Virus record (IMG/VR): IMGVR_UViG_3300025362_000007 | Coordinates: 6,852-70,851 of that record | Source: a virus | Direction: 5' to 3' (one strand) | Length of the DNA: 64,000 nt | Shown: positions 12,973 through 63,652 of the stretch, one piece after another | How positions within the stretch are numbered: position 1 is the first letter of the stretch | How the letters are laid out: the number at the start of each line of letters is the position of its first letter | Translations under genes and position numbers: made by a program | Notes under the pieces: generated by a model | The model's database searches: none | Seen by the model: only the letters and a program-made list of their open reading frames with translations | Told to the model about the DNA's origin: nothing

Positions 12973-13109
12973 AAAGCAACAGAGCATTTGAAGAAGTTAA
13001 AATAGCACACCTGTGATGCCTCTGATGCAAGCATAATTTCATGGGTTATATAGAATTTGGTAGGGATGTTTTATAAATTCTCACCAATGACTCTTAGCAA
13101 AGACTAAGG

Positions 13110-13234
13110 TAAGATGAGTAGTGGAATGGTAAACCACAATCATGGTCGGTAGAGGAAGATACTGCGAACAACAGCCTCAAAGGAAAAGCCGATTGCCCAT
13201 GACCTAAAAACAGGTTCAATTCCTGTCCATCTTA
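13110..13234 (+). ncRNA. tRNA-like RNA A with a long helix in place of the anticodon arm
   Basis: Terminal stem TAAGATG/CATCTTA; D-arm GTGG-AATGGTAAA-CCAC; T-arm ACAGG-TTCAATT-CCTGT; central TCATGG/CCATGA, TCGGT/GCCGA, GAGG/CCTC. Confidence 0.75.
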
Positions 13235-13368
13235 ATTTGTCACAGACGTGTGGATCGAAACTCTTCGCAAGCCTCTTAATAATGCTCAAATGGCGGAGTG
13301 GATGAGGGAACGTTAGCCCCAAACTACAACGGAAAAGGGAGTGTAGTTGACTGCTGGGAAAGACTAGC

Positions 13369-13453
13369 TAAAGTAAGAATGTGGTGGACACATGGGGTGA
13401 GTTAAAGACTTGGGATTCCCCAACTAGCAACACTAGTATTTCTGCTTACTTTA
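13369..13453 (+). ncRNA. Cloverleaf-like RNA B without canonical T-loop
   Basis: TAAAGTAAG/CTTACTTTA encloses ATGTG/CACAT, GGGG/CCCC and ACTAG/CTAGT hairpins. Confidence 0.6.
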
Positions 13454-13474
13454 CGGACACTGGGAAAGACTAGG

Positions 13475-13568
13475 TAGTATGGTGGCTATCTATGAAAATA
13501 AATAGTTACTGGGAGTGGTGGCTTAATACGTAGGGTCACCTGTGTGAGTTCAAATCTTGCCCATACTA
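13475..13568 (+). ncRNA. tRNA-like RNA C with elongated D and central arms
   Basis: TAGTATGG/CCATACTA; T-arm GTGAG-TTCAAAT-CTTGC; GGTGGCTT/GGGTCACC central stem. Confidence 0.7.
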
Positions 13569-13602
13569 GGCTCTAGCTTTTAGTTAGAGGGAATTATTGC
13601 TG

Positions 13603-13778
13603 TACCATGTATGTACGTAGGGAGTACTAAACGTTAGGCAATCTATAGCCTAGAAAAAGAGCGGAGGATGGATAAATGAGACTGCGATTCCATAGGAGTA
13701 AATTCTACACCGCAAAGATGTTACGTTAAGTTAATAGGAATATTAACAGCAGAGGGGTTCAACTCCCCTCACATGGTA
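13603..13778 (+). ncRNA. tRNA-like RNA D (176 nt) with a large multibranched insert
   Basis: TACCATGT/ACATGGTA; GTAC-GTAGGGA-GTAC; T-arm AGGGG-TTCAACT-CCCCT; insert closed by AACGT/ACGTT with TAGGC/GCCTA and GCGG/CCGC. Confidence 0.7.
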
Positions 13779-13805
13779 GAATACGACACTTTGGAAAGAC
13801 AAAGG

Positions 13806-13906
13806 TAGCATAATGGTGGTGTAGGATAACCACACTGGCCAGTTTGGGGGTGAAGATATCCACTTCGTAAACAACAGAGAAACAGGTTCAAGTCCTGTCT
13901 ATGCTA
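13806..13906 (+). ncRNA. tRNA-like RNA E with extended central arm
   Basis: TAGCATA/TATGCTA; D-arm GTGGT-GTAGGATA-ACCAC; T-arm ACAGG-TTCAAGT-CCTGT; central CTG/CAG, GTTT/AAAC, GGGGTG/CACTTC. Confidence 0.75.
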
Positions 13907-13982
13907 AAGGTCGGATAATTACCGAATGAACTACGGAGATTTGGGGTAGCCGTAGAGAGATTGACAAAATTGCCCATCCATT

Positions 13983-14056
13983 GCTACAGTAGCTCAGTTG
14001 GTCAGAGCACGTGACTTGTAATCTCGGTGTCGTCAGTTCGAATCTGACTTGTAGCT
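13983..14056 (+). tRNA. tRNA-Thr(TGT), CCA not encoded
   Basis: GCTACAG/TTGTAGC, TAGCTCAGTTGGTCAGAGC, loop CTTGTAA, GTTCGAATC. Confidence 0.9.
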
Positions 14057-14070
14057 TTTAAGAGTATTTT

Positions 14071-14121
14071 GGAAGTGAGCCTAATGGTGGGAAACTGTCT
14101 TGAAAACAGTCGATGGTATCC
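14071..14121 (+). pseudogene. 5' part of tRNA-Ser(TGA); T-arm and 3' acceptor strand missing
   Basis: GGAAGTG start as in the intact Ser gene, ACTGT-CTTGAAA-ACAGT anticodon arm, no GTTCRA downstream. Confidence 0.6.
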
Positions 14122-14171
14122 AACGATGTTCACGTTAGAAGCGGAACAAGAGAGTAAGAGAAAGTAAAAAT

Positions 14172-14242
14172 GCATTTGTGGCATATTGGCTGTGCGCTAG
14201 CCTTCCAAGCTAGTGAAGAGAGTTCGATTCTCTCCAAGTGCT
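14172..14242 (+). tRNA. tRNA-Gly(TCC), CCA not encoded
   Basis: GCATTTG/CAAGTGC, CTAGC-CTTCCAA-GCTAG, GAGAG-TTCGATT-CTCTC. Confidence 0.88.
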
Positions 14243-14252
14243 TATAGTAATA

Positions 14253-14331
14253 GGGGGCGTAGCTCAATCGGCAGAGCACTGGGTGCACCATAACGTGGCA
14301 GTGGATAGGAGTTCGAGTCTCCTCGGCTCCT
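14253..14331 (+). tRNA. Atypical tRNA with enlarged, bulged anticodon arm; identity undetermined (CAT in loop)
   Basis: Canonical TAGCTCAATCGGCAGAGC D-arm and AGGAG-TTCGAGT-CTCCT T-arm; central CTG-GGTG-CAC-CATAAC-GTG-G-CAG. Confidence 0.6.
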
Positions 14332-14343
14332 ATTACTAGTATT

Positions 14344-14428
14344 GGAAGTGTGTAGCAGAATTGGTATTGCCCTAGTCTTGAAAACTAACGTGGTAAAACA
14401 CATGGGGGTTCGAATCCCTCCGCTTCCG
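14344..14428 (+). tRNA. tRNA-Ser(TGA), CCA not encoded
   Basis: GGAAGTG/CGCTTCC, loop CTTGAAA, long variable arm, GTTCGAATC, G73; two extra bases after the acceptor strand. Confidence 0.8.
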
Positions 14429-14432
14429 TATT

Positions 14433-14517
14433 GGAAAGTTGCCAGAGCGGTAATGGAGCAGATTGCTAATCTGTAGCCTCTTAATTGGGGTCAGGGGTTC
14501 GATTCCTCTACTTTCCG
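14433..14517 (+). tRNA. tRNA-Ser(GCT), CCA not encoded
   Basis: GGAAAGT/ACTTTCC, loop TTGCTAA, long variable arm, GTTCGATTC, G73. Confidence 0.9.
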
Positions 14518-14640
14518 AATATCGCACTTTGGACTCTTCGGAACAAAGAGGGTTTAGTCAGCCATAGAGTGACTTTGGAAAGTTGGTGGAAAGGTTTAGG
14601 CTATTTTCCTAAGGATGGACGAGGCACTTCAACTAGACGG

Positions 14641-15045: not shown

Positions 15046-15639
15046 GTGTTATATTCAATAGGGAAATTTGCAAAACAGATAGGGGTAACAACCGCTACAC
15101 TACGAAATTGGGATGCTAGTGGGGAACTGACCCCACAAAAAGTTACAAATGGTGGTACTCGTTATTATTCAGAACAGCAATTAAATAGTTATATGAACAA
15201 AACTATTAGTAGCAAAAAAGAGACATATATATATGCAAGAGTATCAAGTAATAATCAAAAAAAGGATTTGGTAAATCAAGTAGATTTTTTAAGACAATAT
15301 TGTAATGCAAAAGGGTACATTGTAAATGTATTAACTGATACAGGTAGTGGATTAAATTATAAAAGAAAAAATTGGAATGTACTACTTGATTTAGTAATTA
15401 AGGGCAGTGTAGATCGAATAGTAATAGCGCACAAAGATAGATTTGTTCGTTTTGGGTGTGACTGGTTTTTCTCTCTTTGTGAAAAACATGGGTGTATTAT
15501 AGAGGTAGTAAATAATGACACACTAAGCCCCCAAGAAGAAATGGTTCAAGATTTAATTTCTATTATTCACGTATTCAGTTGCCGTATATATGGGTTACGA
15601 AAGTACAAAGAAAAATTACAGAATGATGAAAGCATATAA
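15046..15639 (+). CDS. tnpA: IS607 transposase (MerR-like HTH plus serine recombinase)
   Basis: TLRNWD...GGTRYY, YARVSS, DRFVRFG, LISIIHVFSCRIYG. Confidence 0.95.
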   Translation: MLYSIGKFAKQIGVTTATLRNWDASGELTPQKVTNGGTRYYSEQQLNSYMNKTISSKKETYIYARVSSNNQKKDLVNQVDFLRQYCNAKGYIVNVLTDTGSGLNYKRKNWNVLLDLVIKGSVDRIVIAHKDRFVRFGCDWFFSLCEKHGCIIEVVNNDTLSPQEEMVQDLISIIHVFSCRIYGLRKYKEKLQNDESI

Positions 15640-16771
15640 AATAGAAATAAATCCTACAGAGGAACAGAAAACAAAGATAAACAAGACTATGGGGGTTTGT
15701 CGTTTTATTTATAATCTATATATTTCTAAAAATAAGGAAGAGTACGAAACTACTAAAAAGTTTATAAGTGCCTATGATTTTAGTAAATATATAAATAATG
15801 TTTTTATTAAGGAGAATCCTTCCTATGCTTGGATTAAAGATGTATCAAGTAAATCAGTAAAACAATCTGTATGTAATGCTGAAAAGGCATTTAAATTATT
15901 TTTTAATAAAAAGGCATGCTTTCCTAAATACAAGAAAAAGCATGTATCTAACATAAAAATGTATTTGCCTAAAAACAATAATACAGATTGGGCAATAGAA
16001 AGACATAGGGTAAAAATACCCACATTAGGCTTTGTTAGATTAAAAGAATTTGGATATATACCTAAGGATGCTGTTGTATCTAGTGGTGCAGTAAGTAAAG
16101 AGGCTGATAAGTATTTTGTTTCTATTTTAGTGAAAGAAGATAGGGTATATACTAGCAAGAAAGGGAAACAAGCAATAGGAATAGATTTAGGGATAAAAAC
16201 GTTTGCTGTATGTTCTGACGGCAGAACTTTTAAGAATATAAACAAGACAGCTAAGATAAAAGCACTAGAAAAGAAATTAAAAAAAGAACAAAAAGCTTTC
16301 AGTAGAAAGTTAGGATCTCGAAAAAAGGAGGAGTCTAATAAAAATTTAGATAAAAATAGAATACGAGTACAAAGATTACATAGGCGGTTACGTAATATTC
16401 GTCAAGAATATGTAAAATTTGTGGTAAATTCACTTGTGAAAGCCAATAATTTACCTGTATACATTTCTATTGAAGATTTGAATGTCAATGGTATGATGAA
16501 AAACAGACATTTGAGCAAAGCTATCCAAAAGCAAAATTTTTATTATTTTAGAACTAAACTTATAGAAAAATGCAACAAATATGATGTTGAGGTAAGGGTT
16601 ATAGACAGATTCTACCCAAGCAGTAAAACTTGTAGTATTTGCGGAGCATATAAATCTGATTTGAAGTTAAGTGATAGAGTATATAAATGTGGGTGTGGTG
16701 GTAGTTTAGATAGGGATTTAAATGCAAGTATAAATATTAGGGATTGCAAGATATATAAAGTAGCAATTTAA
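15623..16771 (+). CDS. tnpB: RNA-guided endonuclease TnpB
   Basis: RuvC GIDLG, IEDL, DRDLNAS all intact; CSICG/CGCG zinc finger. Confidence 0.95.
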   Translation: MMKAYKIEINPTEEQKTKINKTMGVCRFIYNLYISKNKEEYETTKKFISAYDFSKYINNVFIKENPSYAWIKDVSSKSVKQSVCNAEKAFKLFFNKKACFPKYKKKHVSNIKMYLPKNNNTDWAIERHRVKIPTLGFVRLKEFGYIPKDAVVSSGAVSKEADKYFVSILVKEDRVYTSKKGKQAIGIDLGIKTFAVCSDGRTFKNINKTAKIKALEKKLKKEQKAFSRKLGSRKKEESNKNLDKNRIRVQRLHRRLRNIRQEYVKFVVNSLVKANNLPVYISIEDLNVNGMMKNRHLSKAIQKQNFYYFRTKLIEKCNKYDVEVRVIDRFYPSSKTCSICGAYKSDLKLSDRVYKCGCGGSLDRDLNASINIRDCKIYKVAI

Positions 16772-16935
16772 AGCATTTATATATGTGTACTGTGGGCTAA
16801 CACAGGAATTTACGATTGTGGACATCTACACAAACAATAGTAGCATTATGCGAGATTGGGGTGGTTGAAGCAATAAAACTCAAAAATATATAATTTTATA
16901 GATTTTTGTTAGCAGGAATTGGTATGATATTTGAA
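16772..16935 (+). ncRNA. Putative TnpB omegaRNA scaffold (IS right end) plus flanking guide
   Basis: Non-coding 3' end of the IS with CTGTG/CACAG hairpin; guide would be AATTGGTATGATATTTGAA after CAGG. Confidence 0.55.
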
Positions 16936-17358
16936 GTAGGAAAGAGTTATAAGTATGTTGGGGGTAATCCAGATTACTTTCGTAGTGATGGTGAGATGGA
17001 TTACATAAAACAAGGGACGCACACTGTTGTCTTTAGTGAGAAATGTCCAGGTAAGTACGATGTACTATTTGCGGACGACCCAAATGGGCGCTCGTGGTAC
17101 GTAGACTCAAAAGACTTTGTTCGTGTGCTTGCCCGAGGTGATAGAGTCACAGTCTGGGACATTGAGAAGCAATTTGCAGATAAAGCACTATTTTTGGGAT
17201 ATTTTGATGAAGCCCTATATCCGTATGTTGCAATGGTGGATGGTGACGTGTTACCCCAAGGTTTTATGCACGCAATACTGGAAGAAGACACTAAGCTAGT
17301 AGAACTTCAACTGGCGCTTACTGCTGCCCAGAAAGCAATTGACGATTATATAAGATAA
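16924..17358 (+). CDS. Hypothetical protein
   Basis: ATG 16924 just past the IS right end. Confidence 0.6.
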   Translation: MIFEVGKSYKYVGGNPDYFRSDGEMDYIKQGTHTVVFSEKCPGKYDVLFADDPNGRSWYVDSKDFVRVLARGDRVTVWDIEKQFADKALFLGYFDEALYPYVAMVDGDVLPQGFMHAILEEDTKLVELQLALTAAQKAIDDYIR

Positions 17359-17368
17359 GAGATTTACG

Positions 17369-17446
17369 GGGGTAAAATTGGTTTCGACAACTATTAAGTC
17401 TTGAAAGAGAAATAGTTGGAAGTGGGTTCGATTCCCACTTGCTCCA
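17369..17446 (+). ncRNA. tmRNA tRNA-like-domain-only RNA (78 nt)
   Basis: GGGGTAA/TTGCTCC acceptor with G3-U70 and A73; stemless D-loop AATTGGTTTCGAC; short P2 CAACTATT/AATAGTTG; T-arm GTGGG-TTCGATT-CCCAC; no tag ORF. Confidence 0.8.
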
Positions 17447-17703
17447 AATTAGTACATAGAAGGAAGTAGAAATATGGAACAATATTCAAACATATATTTC
17501 TTCATTACAAAATGATAAGGATATTGATTTAAAGATGGATGATAAAGATAAAGCTACAACTCATGGATTTGATAAATATTCTTTTCGGAATCCAATAAAA
17601 TAATGCTTGACACTCAATAAGTACTGTGGTAGAGTTAATAAATAGCAACGAATATTTCCACTACACTGTATATATAGTGCATTATGGAAAGGAAGGAGTA
17701 GAA

Positions 17704-17985
17704 GTGCGAAATAAAGAAGTGTATGATACACTCATAGCCATAGAAGGGATCACTACACAACGTGAAGCAGAAAGTAATTGGTATGATGAAACTATGTTTG
17801 AAGTAGGAAACTATTTTCTTATATATAATCCGTCTCATCATTCCTTAATAGCTGCTACAGGTAATCAGAGGTTTGGTACATACCTGTACACAGGGGCTAT
17901 TAGCGCTATAATGCTTGTAGAGAACGAAGTACATATACATGTGTCAAGCAGTACAATAATAATTAGTTTGAGTAAGGGAAAATAG
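17704..17985 (+). CDS. Hypothetical protein
   Basis: AAGGAGTAGAA RBS before GTG 17704; promoter TTGACA at 17607. Confidence 0.55.
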   Translation: MRNKEVYDTLIAIEGITTQREAESNWYDETMFEVGNYFLIYNPSHHSLIAATGNQRFGTYLYTGAISAIMLVENEVHIHVSSSTIIISLSKGK

Positions 17986-17987
17986 AA

Positions 17988-18200
17988 ATGTCATTAGACA
18001 AGGGAAAGGAAAATATTCAATACAAAATTAAAGGAATTAAAACTAAAGAACAAGATATGGAAAAGTTACTATTTACGTTAGGGTGTTATACAGGTGAACC
18101 AATAACAATAATAAATACTTTAGCATCTAATATGATTATACATATTAAAGATGCAAGATACAGTATCGACATTGAACTAGCAAAAGCTATATTAATATAA
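17988..18200 (+). CDS. feoA: FeoA-domain protein
   Basis: 70 aa; LFTLGCYTGEPITI and IKDARYSIDIELAKAI fit the FeoA SH3-like pattern. Confidence 0.8.
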   Translation: MSLDKGKENIQYKIKGIKTKEQDMEKLLFTLGCYTGEPITIINTLASNMIIHIKDARYSIDIELAKAILI

Positions 18201-18358
18201 AGGGGAAAGAAATGACACTTACGGACGTTCAAAACTATGAACAAGCACTAGTAGAATTAGAGGATGCATTTGCATCACAAGAACCAGATTACATAAAAAT
18301 AGATAATCTTTACAAAGTAATCGCAGAGTACGAAGATAGCATTTACAAGGAGTAGAAA

Positions 18359-19267
18359 TTGGCAGATTTATTAAAAGAACTTCGCCCAAAGAAATTTAGC
18401 GAGGTACTGGGCAACAAAGAGGCAGTCAAGTCTCTTAAAGAAAAATTCAATTCAGATCAAAAACCTCATTGTGTTATGTTCTCAGGATTATCTGGGGGCG
18501 GTAAAACAACACTCATGCGAATATGTTCTGGTATAGTGGGGGCAATGGATTTAGATATACATGAATTTAACATAGGGGATGCTAGGGGTATAGAGGATGC
18601 TAGAGGAATAATTCAATTAATGAATTACCAACCCTATGGCGGGAGTACTGTGATTATCTTAGATGAGATTCACAATAGCACTAAGCTATTCCAGGAATCA
18701 TTATTAAAACCGTTTGAGGACATTCCAGAACATGTGTATGTGTTTATTGCTACCACAGAACCAAGTAAAATTATACCTACATTAAAGAGAAGGTTTACTC
18801 ATTATCAAATAAAACCTGTGGAATCACAAGAACTATTTATGTATTTAGCAAAAGTTGCAAAGCAATATAGTATGAAATTGAATGAGGATGCAATGGATAA
18901 TATTATAGAGCAAGCCAGTGGAAGTACAGCTATTGCACTATCATTATTAAACACAATTATGGAAGTAGGTGTAGATGAGCAACTCGCCTTACTAGACTAT
19001 GCTAAAAATGAAACCAATGGGGTCATAAAGCTCTGTCAGTCGCTTTTATATCAAAAAGGGTGGAATAGTACTATTAGTATAGTAAACGAGCTAGAGGACT
19101 CACCAGAGGGCTACAGGAGGATTATACTAAATTATATGATGAAAGTATTGTTGAATCCTAAGTCTAGTAAGATGCACCACACTGCTGCGAGTATTATAGA
19201 TATATTTGTTGGCTATATAGATACAAAAGCTGAATTTGTGATGAGATGCTATAAGTGCACGATATAA
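18359..19267 (+). CDS. Clamp-loader AAA+ ATPase (DnaX gamma/tau-like)
   Basis: LRPKKFSEVLG, GLSGGGKTT, IILDEIH, LLKPFE, ATTEP. Confidence 0.88.
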   Translation: MADLLKELRPKKFSEVLGNKEAVKSLKEKFNSDQKPHCVMFSGLSGGGKTTLMRICSGIVGAMDLDIHEFNIGDARGIEDARGIIQLMNYQPYGGSTVIILDEIHNSTKLFQESLLKPFEDIPEHVYVFIATTEPSKIIPTLKRRFTHYQIKPVESQELFMYLAKVAKQYSMKLNEDAMDNIIEQASGSTAIALSLLNTIMEVGVDEQLALLDYAKNETNGVIKLCQSLLYQKGWNSTISIVNELEDSPEGYRRIILNYMMKVLLNPKSSKMHHTAASIIDIFVGYIDTKAEFVMRCYKCTI

Positions 19268-28141: not shown

Positions 28142-29016
28142 AATTTTTAGTGGGAAGTGATTTTCATTTTATGGATACTACCCCTAGATGTAGGGTAGAT
28201 AATTTTTATGCTACACAGGAAGAAAGAGTTAAATGGTTGGTAGAGCAAATTAACTTTCACAAATGTCCTTTGTTTGTTCCAGGAGATGTCTTGGACAAAG
28301 GATCGATCAGTCAAAAAATGGAGAATATGCTAATAAGGGAATTAAAGAAAACTAAATATCCTATCTACACTAGTGCTGGAAATCACGATATGAATTACCA
28401 TTCTATTGCACACCTAAAAACATCTAGTTATTGGGTGTTATATCAAGCAGGGGTAATACAACATGTAGAAAGTATGGAGTTTGAAGGTATGCAAGTAACT
28501 GCTTTTCAATACGGACAAAAGATAGAGAATGGAACAGGTATGGCTATGATACACACCTTAGTATTTCCGCACAACCCACCAGCATATCTGCCAACTGCTG
28601 TTAAGGCTCAAACCTTATTAGAGAAGTTTGATTATGACATCATATTAAGTGGTGATAATCATATGGCATTTGTTACAGAATATGAGGGTAAAATACTAAT
28701 TAATGGTGGAGGTATATTTAGGTTAACAGGGGATAAAAAACACACTACTCCTAAGATATATTTATATGAAGAGGGAGAAGTAACTGCTATAGATGTTCCC
28801 TATACCCTAGATAATGTGGAAGAAGAATATCTATTAGTAGAGAAAGCCAGAAATGATAGGATTACTGCATTTGTTGAAAGAGTAAAAGTAAGCCAAGAGA
28901 TAGGACTTAGTTTCACAGACAATATAAGAACGACATTAGATACAACGGAAGTAAGTAAAGAAGTGCAAGAGCTCATTTTTAGAGCTTTGAATAATACGTT
29001 AAAAGAGAAGGAGTGA
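28138..29016 (+). CDS. SbcD/Mre11-like nuclease
   Basis: SDFH, GDVLD, GNHD, GDNH. Confidence 0.88.
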   Translation: MKFLVGSDFHFMDTTPRCRVDNFYATQEERVKWLVEQINFHKCPLFVPGDVLDKGSISQKMENMLIRELKKTKYPIYTSAGNHDMNYHSIAHLKTSSYWVLYQAGVIQHVESMEFEGMQVTAFQYGQKIENGTGMAMIHTLVFPHNPPAYLPTAVKAQTLLEKFDYDIILSGDNHMAFVTEYEGKILINGGGIFRLTGDKKHTTPKIYLYEEGEVTAIDVPYTLDNVEEEYLLVEKARNDRITAFVERVKVSQEIGLSFTDNIRTTLDTTEVSKEVQELIFRALNNTLKEKE

Positions 29017-62389: not shown

Positions 62390-63652
62390 TCATTGATCTG
62401 ATTTAATATTGTATATAGGGATAATTTCCTCCACTATATTTGCAATCTCTTTTATATGTGTATAAATTTCTTTTGGATTTTTATATGCTTGAGGAGCTTC
62501 ATCCAATGTAGCTTCGTTCACGCTAGTTGTCCACACATGTGCCATAGAATCTCTGTACTCATCCATACTTATATTTTTCTTAGCTTGGGTTCTCGAACTA
62601 ACCCTCCCAGCACCATGGGGAGCAGAATAATTCCAGTCATATAAATTACTATGGAACTTCCCTTTTACCAACAACATCCCTGCTCCCATATTCAACGCAA
62701 TAAGTGCGTAAGTATCTTCAAACAGTTGTACAGCCCCCTTTCTAATAATTGGCTCGTCCACATCCACATCCACATAGTTGTGCACACTTTCTACTACAAA
62801 CGCATGTAGTTTAACAAACAACAAACTTCCCATGATATGCTCTGCTATCTGAAATGCTATTGCCTTTCTATTGGCAGAGGCAAATAAATTAGCCACCCTC
62901 ATCGCCTCTATATACTCATCGTAGTATCTAGTTCCTTTTTCTAGATAAGCTAAATCTTTATCTATCACAGGACATTTAGCAGTAAATTCCTTCAACGCAT
63001 GTTCTATCTCTCTTTCTCTCCCCTGAGATTTCAATGTCGATATGAGTGCCTCTCTCTGTCCCTTTTTCCCCTTTAATGTTTCGTAAGCTTTATTTTGGTA
63101 GTAAGTAGCAATTCGATTACCAAAATTCCTCGACCCACTATGCACAAACAACCAACTATCTCCCTTACTGTCTTTCCCTATCTCGATGAAATGATTTCCA
63201 GATCCGAGTGTGCCAATGGAATATATATCTTTTTGTGTCTTCCCTGTTGTGTTCGTTAATTTATTTATACTGTGAATGCTATCTCTTAGACAATCCCTAC
63301 CTCCTACATAAGTATCTTCTATGAAAGACTCCCTTATATTTCTCCCCATAGGAATACTCTTTCGTATAAACTCATCGAGAACTTTAAAATCTATATCTAT
63401 CTTACCTAGATTAATACCTAGTATCCCACAATTACAATCTAAGCCAATCAAATTCGGCACAATTTTATCTGTCAGTTTTGCAGTATACCCAATTAGACAC
63501 CCTTTCCCTTGATGATGGTCGGGCATTATTCGTACATGAGAGTTCTCTGCCATAGGTTGAGCTAACAACTCCAACAACTGCTCTTTTTCATTTGCTTCCA
63601 ATTTGTCACTGTGTACTACAGCTGTTTCGTATTTCCCTTTTACTTTTATCAT
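62390..63652 (-). CDS. rtcB: RtcB RNA 2',3'-cyclic phosphate/5'-OH ligase
   Basis: MPDHH, DCNCG, GTLGSGNHFIE, HSGSR, HNY, RKGA, HGAGR, DEAPQAYK. Confidence 0.95.
   Translation of the reverse strand: MIKVKGKYETAVVHSDKLEANEKEQLLELLAQPMAENSHVRIMPDHHQGKGCLIGYTAKLTDKIVPNLIGLDCNCGILGINLGKIDIDFKVLDEFIRKSIPMGRNIRESFIEDTYVGGRDCLRDSIHSINKLTNTTGKTQKDIYSIGTLGSGNHFIEIGKDSKGDSWLFVHSGSRNFGNRIATYYQNKAYETLKGKKGQREALISTLKSQGREREIEHALKEFTAKCPVIDKDLAYLEKGTRYYDEYIEAMRVANLFASANRKAIAFQIAEHIMGSLLFVKLHAFVVESVHNYVDVDVDEPIIRKGAVQLFEDTYALIALNMGAGMLLVKGKFHSNLYDWNYSAPHGAGRVSSRTQAKKNISMDEYRDSMAHVWTTSVNEATLDEAPQAYKNPKEIYTHIKEIANIVEEIIPIYNIKSDQ

What the first reader, a model, noticed from the sequence alone, without database searches (positions are those of the whole stretch)
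17369..17446. Minimal tmRNA mimic: tRNA-like domain only, no tag reading frame
Seen: a tmRNA-type 5' end (GGGG...GGTTTCGAC, D-loop without stem), a G3-U70 pair and A73 (alanine identity) and a normal T-arm. The whole pseudoknot/mRNA-like domain is replaced by a ~30-nt hairpin. Known: the TLD binds SmpB, and a TLD-only ssrA relative is described in mycobacteriophage DS6A. Inference: it could sequester SmpB to block trans-translation tagging of phage proteins, or add Ala to stalled chains without tagging them.
Basis: partly seen in the sequence, partly recalled or inferred. Interest (0 to 1): 0.78.

Follow-up and report, generated by a model that had tools for sequence, protein, structure and literature searches.

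The report
Phage mini-tmRNA without a tag
This phage carries a 78-base RNA gene that copies only the tRNA-like end of the bacterial ribosome-rescue RNA (tmRNA) and lacks its tagging message; many other uncultured phages carry the same kind of gene, probably to interfere with or replace the host's rescue-and-tag system.

Summary
Window 17369-17446 (+) scores 54.1 bits on Rfam tmRNA (cut-off 47, E 1.8e-18), with 304 middle model positions replaced by 11 nt. It has a 7-bp acceptor stem with G3:U70, A73, a stemless GGUUUCGAC D-loop, a 29-nt hairpin and a normal T arm. There is no tag frame and no encoded CCA.

It is not a one-off. Every stem covaries. U70 and A73 were not in the first pattern, yet they are invariant in 85 of 85.

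The one published example, mycobacteriophage DS6A, fits my model at 60.1 bits. ARAGORN of 116. Among 47 records, none has SmpB, and among 46 none has a full-length tmRNA. The same pattern hits only 14 stretches in 185,579 prokaryote genomes.

Most likely it is charged with alanine, needs host SmpB, and competes with host tmRNA at stalled ribosomes, so no degradation tag is added. That function is inferred, not shown. It is a new, divergent member of a known kind.

The parts
17369..17446 (+). whole mini-tmRNA gene (G1 to discriminator A73), 78 nt
   Evidence: Rfam tmRNA 54.1 bits, E 1.8e-18. Family model R1 82 bits, but this sequence was in the model's training set. Fold -24.1 kcal/mol, z -3.4.
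17369..17375 (+). acceptor stem, 5' strand GGGGUAA (G3 at 17371)
   Evidence: Pairs with 17439-17445 over 7 bp. Acceptor pairs 5-7 covary across the family.
17376..17388 (+). stemless D-loop analogue AAUUGGUUUCGAC (tmRNA-type)
   Evidence: Aligned to Rfam tmRNA consensus GAucuGGaUUCGAC. The GG and UUCGAC were demanded by the scan pattern, so their invariance in the family is not evidence.
17389..17417 (+). P2-like hairpin that replaces the pseudoknots and the mRNA-like domain: lower stem AACUAUU/AAUAGUU, internal loop UAAG, upper stem UCUU/GAGA, loop GAAA
   Evidence: In the family, the lower stem has changes on both sides in 6 of 6 pairs and 94.9% of cells are paired. The upper stem covaries in the second set.
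17418..17421 (+). linker GGAA (family consensus GGAC) between P2 and the T arm
   Evidence: Columns 54-56 are G (85 of 85, unconstrained by the pattern), G and A (90% or more) in A1.
17422..17438 (+). T arm GUGGG-UUCGAUU-CCCAC
   Evidence: T stem is 100% paired in the family; 3 of 5 pairs show changes on both sides.
17439..17446 (+). acceptor stem 3' strand UUGCUCC (U70 at 17443) and discriminator A73 (17446); next bases are AAU, so CCA is not encoded
   Evidence: U70, C71, C72 and A73 are invariant in 85 of 85 without being in the scan pattern.

Best explanation
Window 17369-17446 is a gene for a 78-nt 'mini-tmRNA'. [quoted passage not shown] It belongs to a large, mostly phage-borne family that also includes the DS6A element.

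Proposed mechanism (steps 1-5 are inferred from the anatomy and from published work on TLD fragments; none was tested here):
1. It is transcribed with the upstream gene and cut out by RNase P and a 3' tRNA-processing nuclease. The host CCA-adding enzyme then adds CCA, as for this phage's own CCA-less tRNAs.
2. Host AlaRS charges it with alanine through G3:U70 and A73.
3. Host SmpB binds it in place of an anticodon arm, and EF-Tu delivers the complex to ribosomes stalled with an empty A site.
4. It accepts the nascent chain. With no message to switch to, no degradation tag is added.
5. The chain ends in one or a few alanines, and the ribosome waits for another round or for a release factor.

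The net effect would be competition with host tmRNA for SmpB and for stalled ribosomes. During infection, rescue would then be uncoupled from ssrA tagging.
For: Shown here:
- tmRNA-model match with the middle deleted.
- 115 of 117 IMG/VR pattern hits, plus 71 of 71 new loci from a second scan, share the architecture. That gives 141 distinct sequences with the window's own.
- Covariation score 0.651 against 0.142 in shuffles (0 of 500 reach it) and 0.07-0.13 when partners are slid. RNAalifold finds the same three helices on its own.
- The second set gives 0.770 against 0.160, but its alignment was fitted to the model.
- U70, C71, C72 and A73 are invariant in 85 of 85 although not in the first pattern. 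Neighbouring acceptor pairs 5-7 vary freely.
- CCA directly follows A73 in 35 of 85.
- DS6A's element scores 60.1 bits on the family model.
- No SmpB gene in 0 of 47 element-bearing records, including this one. No full-length tmRNA in 46. So it must work with host factors.
- All five tRNA genes of the window (Rfam matches) also lack an encoded CCA.

From papers:
- PMC11915505 (passages): the DS6A form was shown to inhibit endogenous tmRNA in E. coli.
- PMC3929946 (passages): a TLD fragment with SmpB supports polyalanine synthesis without mRNA in vitro, and the crystallised TLD-SmpB complex used a hairpin-closed TLD of this design.
Against: - No experiment or RNA data exist for this element. 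Its expression, its ends, its charging and SmpB binding are all untested.
- The host is unknown, so I could not test whether the TLD fits the host's SmpB or AlaRS.
- No promoter-like or terminator-like site lies directly beside the element.
- No conserved protein partner or release factor travels with the family: the best neighbour cluster is in 12 of 116 loci, and RF-1/ArfB-type domains occur in 1 of 47 records. Nothing in the genomes says what happens after peptidyl transfer.
- Both family sets were collected with motif patterns. Invariance of the patterned bases is circular, and members with other D- or T-loops are uncounted.
Confidence: 0.55

Rival explanations
1. Pure SmpB sponge. The RNA only titrates host SmpB (and perhaps RNase R), never needs charging and never enters the ribosome. 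Trans-translation is simply switched off.
For: [quoted passage not shown] The D-loop analogue and the GGA(C) linker, which are TLD features, are kept.
Against: A sponge would not need the G3:U70 wobble, A73 or a tRNA-type 3' end. Yet U70 and A73 are invariant in 85 of 85 without being demanded by the scan, while neighbouring pairs vary. CCA follows A73 in 35 of 85.
Confidence: 0.15
2. Decoy or bait for host nucleases or defence sensors that act on tmRNA or tRNA (for example systems with SmpB-like sensor domains), or a substrate linked to the phage's own RtcB RNA-repair ligase.
For: This phage and DS6A both encode RtcB. PMC11090510 (passages) reports defence systems with SmpB-like domains and cites tmRNA as the most frequent RtcB target in bacteria.
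Against: RtcB is present in only 3 of 46 other element-bearing records of 25 kb or more, and in 1 of the 17 that are at least 90% complete. No defence-related neighbour is conserved. A bait would not explain strict conservation of the alanine identity.
Confidence: 0.07
3. Cis-acting tRNA-like processing or stability signal at the 3' end of the upstream mRNA (ORF 16906-17358 ends 10 nt before it), with no role in ribosome rescue.
For: The element lies 10 nt after the upstream stop codon, with no promoter-like site in between.
Against: Any tRNA-like fold would do for that. The family instead keeps the tmRNA-specific stemless D-loop, G3:U70 and A73. Its neighbours differ from phage to phage.
Confidence: 0.05
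4. Non-functional remnant: a recently deleted full-length phage tmRNA, or an attP copy of the host ssrA 3' end.
For: Phages often integrate into ssrA and carry its 3' end (stated in PMC9004378, passages).
Against: - Both halves of the TLD are present and joined by a covarying hairpin.
- The 141 distinct sequences are all short.
- No full-length tmRNA in 46 related records.
- No tyrosine integrase in this record, and one in only 7 of 47 records. In those seven it lies 3 kb or more from the element (coordinates).
Confidence: 0.03

Closest known systems
TLD-only ssrA of mycobacteriophage DS6A (tmRNA Website tmID 11587; Hudson et al. 2014, PMC4131195; Mao et al. 2009, not held in the library)
   Same: Both are phage-borne and about 80 nt. 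Both have an acceptor stem with G3:U70 and A73, a stemless D-loop, a P2 hairpin with an A-rich internal loop and a small upper stem, a T arm and no tag frame. DS6A 28478-28557 scores 60.1 bits on the family model. Both phages also carry RtcB.
   Different: The element here has 41% G+C against 70% in DS6A. The D-loop here is the canonical GGUUUCGAC, while DS6A has an extra base and GUCGAC. The host here is unknown and probably low-G+C, while DS6A infects a mycobacterium. DS6A has a tyrosine integrase; this record has none. The DS6A element is unannotated in its GenBank records.
Canonical one-piece tmRNA (Rfam RF00023)
   Same: The 5' and 3' ends, G3:U70, A73, the D-loop analogue, P2a and the T arm are shared. 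The element passes the Rfam gathering score.
   Different: It lacks all four pseudoknots, the resume codon, the tag frame and its stop: 304 of 374 model positions. It cannot hand the ribosome a message.
CDS-less organellar tmRNAs: jakobid mitochondrial tmRNA and two ~65-bp Mallomonadaceae plastid genes (PMC11915505, passages)
   Same: A natural TLD-only form without a tag frame, thought to work with SmpB.
   Different: Those are organellar and reduced by genome erosion, and they are the only rescue RNA of their compartment. Here a virus brings the short form into a cell that, like nearly all bacteria, should already have full tmRNA.
Engineered TLD fragments used in crystal structures and in vitro assays (Gutmann 2003, Bessho 2007, Shimizu and Ueda 2006, as described in PMC3929946, passages)
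   Same: The same design: the 5' and 3' ends of tmRNA joined by a short capped P2 helix. These fragments bind SmpB and support mRNA-free polyalanine synthesis.
   Different: Those are laboratory constructs derived from host tmRNAs. This one is a natural gene under selection in phages.
tRNA-Ala
   Same: G3:U70, A73, the T arm and a 7-bp acceptor stem.
   Different: It has no D stem and no anticodon arm with a 7-nt loop. ARAGORN does not call it. The best clan match in Rfam is tmRNA, not tRNA.

Membership tests
tmRNA (ssrA; Rfam RF00023) | tRNA-like domain: 7-bp acceptor stem with G3:U70, discriminator A73, stemless D-loop analogue, T arm | tested here: met
   Full end-to-end match at 54.1 bits against a gathering score of 47.
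tmRNA (ssrA; Rfam RF00023) | mRNA-like domain with a resume codon, a tag reading frame and a stop codon | tested here: not met
   Only 29 nt lie between the D-loop analogue and the GGAA linker, with no GC dinucleotide in them. 304 model positions are missing.
tmRNA (ssrA; Rfam RF00023) | pseudoknots PK1-PK4 | tested here: not met
   Replaced by one hairpin.
TLD-only ssrA relatives of phages (DS6A type) | complete TLD closed by a short P2 hairpin, 60-85 nt, no tag frame | tested here: met
   Family lengths are 59-84 nt.
TLD-only ssrA relatives of phages (DS6A type) | fits the same covariance model as the DS6A element | tested here: met
   R1 gives 82 bits for the window element (it was in the training set) and 60.1 bits for DS6A (it was not). 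Full-length or two-piece phage tmRNAs score 33.5 bits or less.
TLD-only ssrA relatives of phages (DS6A type) | encoded by a virus that lacks its own SmpB and its own full-length tmRNA | tested here: met
   G000 is a virus record. It has no SmpB match and no second tmRNA match above the cut-off.
TLD-only ssrA relatives of phages (DS6A type) | inhibits host trans-translation when expressed | not testable with these tools
   Reported for the DS6A-like form in E. coli (PMC11915505 and PMC4131195, passages). The primary paper, Mao 2009, is not held.
TLD-only ssrA relatives of phages (DS6A type) | alanylation by AlaRS and binding of SmpB and EF-Tu | not testable with these tools
   Only the identity elements can be read: G3:U70 and A73 are present and invariant in the family.
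tRNA | cloverleaf with a D stem and an anticodon arm with a 7-nt loop | tested here: not met
   There is no D stem, and the central hairpin has a 4-nt loop. ARAGORN makes no call.
attP copy of the host ssrA 3' end | only the 3' part of ssrA, beside an integrase | tested here: not met
   Both halves of the TLD are present. There is no tyrosine integrase in the record. The serine recombinase 1.7 kb upstream belongs to an IS607-like element, together with TnpB and the RAGATH-18 RNA.

The most novel reading that the evidence does not exclude
Mini-tmRNAs are a widespread class of small RNA found almost only in phages; annotation pipelines that rely on ARAGORN would miss them. They must be charged with alanine, because G3:U70, A73 and the CCA end are under strict selection. 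They therefore enter stalled ribosomes and turn host trans-translation into tag-less, alanine-only rescue. This would be a general way for phages to keep their nascent proteins from ssrA-directed proteolysis when host RNases or abortive-infection toxins create non-stop mRNAs.
Probability: 0.3. Interest if true: 0.8.

Novelty: new member of a known kind. Interest (0 to 1): 0.6.

Why it matters
Trans-translation is the main ribosome-rescue and protein-tagging pathway of bacteria, and it is a drug target. Until now one phage (DS6A) was on record with a TLD-only tmRNA; the 2025 tmRNA database paper still names only that one for phages (PMC11915505, passages).

This window adds a very divergent member: it has the lowest G+C of the 141 distinct sequences and is at most 78% identical to any other. 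Following it up showed that the form is common in uncultured phages of many sizes, from 36 to 201 kb among the complete records. It is rare in prokaryote genomes (14 pattern hits). ARAGORN misses it in 110 of 116 cases.

This gives a natural, diverse set of minimal SmpB and AlaRS ligands to test. It also gives a concrete question: do phages routinely disarm or rewire ribosome rescue?

Tried and rejected
**Stop codon acting as a zero-length tag.** The window has UAA right after the lower-stem 5' strand. A stop triplet sits there in only 39 of 85 members. The conserved motif is N-A-A-R-R-C-C, and five short members lack the loop altogether. Rejected as a family feature.

**Upstream ORF 16906/16924-17358 as a hidden SmpB-like partner.**
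- No Pfam or PHROG family.
- Atlas hits are all below 0.9.
- The single-sequence AlphaFold model has mean pLDDT 38.7, too poor to search with.
- Nothing can be said about this ORF's fold.

**Close relatives of this phage.**
- Megablast of 16500-18500 against 50,697 phage records: no match.
- The search for related loci with the clamp loader and with the upstream ORF: none.
- The portal protein is below 30% identical to any named phage.
- Synteny of the element in relatives could therefore not be tested.

**BLAST with single elements against named phages.** It finds only T-arm matches or DS6A itself. Three followed-up hits (S-CAM1, S-SSM7, Wakanda) are not TLD-only forms.

**Linked genes.** None is a family trait:
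- RtcB in 3 of 46 records.
- SmpB in 0 of 47.
- RF-1/ArfB-type domain in 1 of 47.
- Tyrosine integrase in 7 of 47.
- Best neighbour cluster in 12 of 116 loci, a DnaB helicase.

**Expression.** No RNA holder is listed among the public runs. Contigs of four DNA runs labelled salt lake metagenome cover the element with no differences (three of them across all of it), so they give no covariation information.

**Host.** The only lead is a TnpB that is 57-60% identical to named Clostridia proteins. This is weak.

**Tools and papers that were unavailable.**
- Mao et al. 2009 is not held.
- Supplementary tables of PMC11915505 and PMC4131195 were not seen. They may list further phage TLD-only entries.

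**Literature searches for a described phage family of such RNAs.** Searches found only the DS6A mentions.

Full report
**1. The observation**

The sequence at 17369-17446 (+) reads as follows:
- GGGGUAA (acceptor stem, 5' strand)
- AAUUGGUUUCGAC (D-loop analogue without a stem)
- AACUAUUAAGUCUUGAAAGAGAAAUAGUU (hairpin)
- GGAA (linker)
- GUGGG-UUCGAUU-CCCAC (T arm)
- UUGCUCC (acceptor stem, 3' strand)
- A (discriminator)

The acceptor stem has seven pairs, with G3:U70 as the third. The bases after A73 are AAU, so CCA is not encoded.

Rfam's tmRNA model RF00023 matches 17369-17447 from its first to its last position at 54.1 bits (gathering score 47, E 1.8e-18). 304 central positions are replaced by 11 nt. 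The predicted fold is -24.1 kcal/mol, z -3.4. ARAGORN sees neither a tRNA nor a tmRNA here. The hairpin holds no GC dinucleotide, so there is no GCN resume codon.

**2. Setting**

The window is part of a 70,851-bp IMG/VR virus record, estimated 75% complete, with about 36% G+C.

Genes around the element:
- Upstream: a cluster of tRNA genes at 13983-14518.
- Upstream: an IS607-like insertion, made of a serine recombinase (15046-15639), TnpB (15590-16771) and the RAGATH-18 RNA (16815-16876).
- Upstream: an ORF of unknown function that ends 10 nt before the element.
- Downstream: a clamp loader and a Dda-like helicase.

The phage also encodes a DNA polymerase, a portal protein and an RtcB RNA ligase.

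It has no close named relative. The portal protein is below 30% identical to any named phage, and DNA search finds nothing.

Runs labelled salt lake metagenome hold the DNA. Contigs of four of them cover the element with no differences, three of them across all of it.

The nearest named TnpB homologues, at 57-60% identity, are from Clostridia. That is only a weak hint about the host.

All five tRNA genes of the window (Rfam matches) lack an encoded CCA, like the element.

**3. It is one of a large family**

First scan:
- The pattern had 22 fixed bases: GGGG, GG-N-TTCGAC and GGTTCGA-N-TCC, with 15-45 nt between the last two blocks.
- It found 117 IMG/VR contigs.
- 115 of the 117 have the whole architecture, including a pairing 3' acceptor strand and A73. 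The two failures are L082 and L094.

Control for chance: the same pattern finds only 14 stretches in the 596 billion bases of 185,579 prokaryote species genomes. Nine of those 14 are true full-length members by the family model. So chance matches are few, and the element is far commoner in viral contigs.

Second scan:
- The pattern was looser in the D-loop and in the T stem, but it demanded TCCA at the 3' end.
- All 71 new loci hold a full-length match to the family model, at 48.7-82.4 bits.

Together this is 186 viral contigs. With the window's own sequence there are 141 distinct sequences, 59-84 nt long (mode 78-79), with 41-80% G+C. The window's element has the lowest G+C of all and is at most 78% identical to any other member.

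**4. Selection on structure and on alanine identity**

First set, 85 distinct sequences, MAFFT alignment A1:
- 91.8% of cells pair, against 64.1% in shuffles.
- The covariation score is 0.651 against 0.142 (0 of 500 shuffles reach it), and 0.07-0.13 when partners are slid by 1-3 columns.
- The lower P2 stem has changes on both sides in 6 of 6 pairs.
- The T stem is paired in 100% of cells.
- Acceptor pairs 5-7 covary.

RNAalifold finds the same three helices without being given a structure.

The second set gives 95.8% paired cells and a score of 0.770 against 0.160. Its alignment was fitted to the model, so it leans that way.

The telling point is at the acceptor end. The first pattern fixed G1-G4 but nothing on the 3' strand. 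Even so, U70, C71, C72 and A73 are identical in 85 of 85, and position 3:70 is G:U in every one, never G:C. CCA follows A73 in 35 of 85, and a C in 75 of 85.

G3:U70 with A73 is the established identity set of AlaRS, and tmRNA is charged through it (PMC8012679 and PMC3929946, passages). The family therefore looks selected to be aminoacylated, not merely to fold.

About 20 of the 85 have a GGGGYGG/CRCCUCC acceptor stem that pairs only with one bulged C. Five to ten short forms lack the upper P2 stem.

**5. Relation to what is known**

PMC4131195 lists 'Mycobacterium phage DS6A (TLD only)'. It says the sequence is little more than the TLD, and that a similar molecule, chargeable or not, strongly inhibits tmRNA, perhaps by titrating SmpB (passages).

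PMC11915505 (2025) still names only DS6A for phages. It adds two plastid genes of about 65 bp and the mitochondrial forms (passages).

I fetched DS6A. Its element lies at 28478-28557, is unannotated in the record, and scores 60.1 bits on my model with the same layout.

Phage tmRNAs that are full-length or two-piece score 33.5 bits or less.

Five literature searches found no description of a phage family of such RNAs.

ARAGORN, which the cited phage tmRNA surveys used (PMC9004378 and PMC11915505, passages), calls only 6 of 116 elements: 2 as tmRNA and 4 as tRNA. Rfam's tmRNA model passes 42 of 46. This may explain why the family went unnoticed.

**6. What travels with it**

Nothing consistent travels with it.
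- The most frequent neighbour cluster, a DnaB helicase, is in 12 of 116 loci.
- 25 of 116 elements lie within 1 kb of tRNA genes. The window's does not.
- Among records of 25 kb or more: SmpB 0 of 47, full-length tmRNA 0 of 46, RtcB 3 of 46, RF-1/ArfB-type domain 1 of 47, tyrosine integrase 7 of 47 and never adjacent to the element.

The RNA must therefore act with host proteins. It is not an attachment-site remnant.

**7. Mechanism**

Published work on engineered TLD fragments of the same design shows two things. They bind SmpB so that the pair mimics a whole tRNA. With SmpB they also support polyalanine synthesis on ribosomes without mRNA (PMC3929946, passages).

Combined with the strict conservation of alanine identity, the most likely working is as follows. 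The RNA is processed like a tRNA and given CCA. It is charged by AlaRS, bound by host SmpB, and delivered by EF-Tu to ribosomes stalled with an empty A site. It accepts the nascent chain but offers no message. It thus competes with host tmRNA, and rescue proceeds, or idles, without the degradation tag.

Every step after 'it has the sequence features' is inference. I put this at 0.55. The rivals are:
- Pure SmpB sponge, 0.15.
- Nuclease or defence decoy, 0.07.
- Cis-acting processing signal, 0.05.
- Remnant or attP fragment, 0.03.

The idea that the UAA in the window's internal loop acts as an immediate stop was rejected: only 39 of 85 members have a stop triplet there.

**8. Verdict**

The finding is real and correctly read. 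It is a new and very divergent member of a known kind, the DS6A-type TLD-only tmRNA.

The added value is the family. It has at least 141 distinct sequences in at least 186 viral contigs and is strongly structured. Its alanine identity is invariant, and it is nearly absent from cellular genomes. What the RNA does during infection remains to be tested.

Noticed in passing
window 15046-16876: An IS607-like insertion inside the phage: a serine recombinase with a MerR-type HTH (15046-15639), TnpB (15590-16771), and a RAGATH-18 RNA at its 3' end (16815-16876, 55.1 bits). A contig from one other run carries a diverged version of that 3' end (11 substitutions and 9 inserted bases between 16756 and 16859).
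   Followed up: partly
window 13263-13299: An abiF RNA motif (Rfam RF03085, 46.6 bits, gathering score 37) sits in a phage genome, in a non-coding stretch. It could be a mimic of a host abortive-infection RNA. Not examined further.
   Followed up: no
window 13000-13980: About 1 kb without long ORFs holds four T-arm-like hairpins (GGTTCAA-N-TCC type, near 13211, 13545, 13754 and 13884). Neither ARAGORN nor Rfam calls them tRNA. They may be degenerate or unusual tRNA-like genes upstream of the tRNA cluster.
   Followed up: no
window 14253-14331: A 79-nt tRNA-like gene: Rfam tRNA 43.1 bits, not called by ARAGORN, 23.3 bits on the mini-tmRNA model. It also has a G3:U70 acceptor stem, together with an over-long anticodon arm. 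This makes a second RNA in this phage that looks alanine-type.
   Followed up: partly
window 62390-63652 (-) and L123 301-1503: Both this phage and DS6A encode an RtcB RNA ligase, but only 3 of 46 other element-bearing records do. The pairing is not a family trait.
   Followed up: yes
loci such as L007, L028, L034, L037, L041, L047, L074 (alignment A1): A sub-family of mini-tmRNAs has a GGGGYGG/CRCCUCC acceptor stem that pairs only if one C of the 3' strand bulges out. The 5:68 positions still change together (U..A against C..G).
   Followed up: partly
L006, L015, L025, L042, L045, L053 and others (59-68 nt): Short forms keep only the lower P2 stem with a small loop. The upper stem and the A-rich internal loop are therefore dispensable for whatever the core does.
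   Followed up: partly
L137 (Terracoccus sp. scaffold), L131 (Mycobacterium sp. MAG) and seven other genome-contig loci: Nine prokaryote assemblies carry true family members (65-90 bits on R1). Most are on short MAG contigs, and one is inside a 1.1-Mb scaffold. They are probably prophages or mis-binned phage contigs. Their context was not examined.
   Followed up: no
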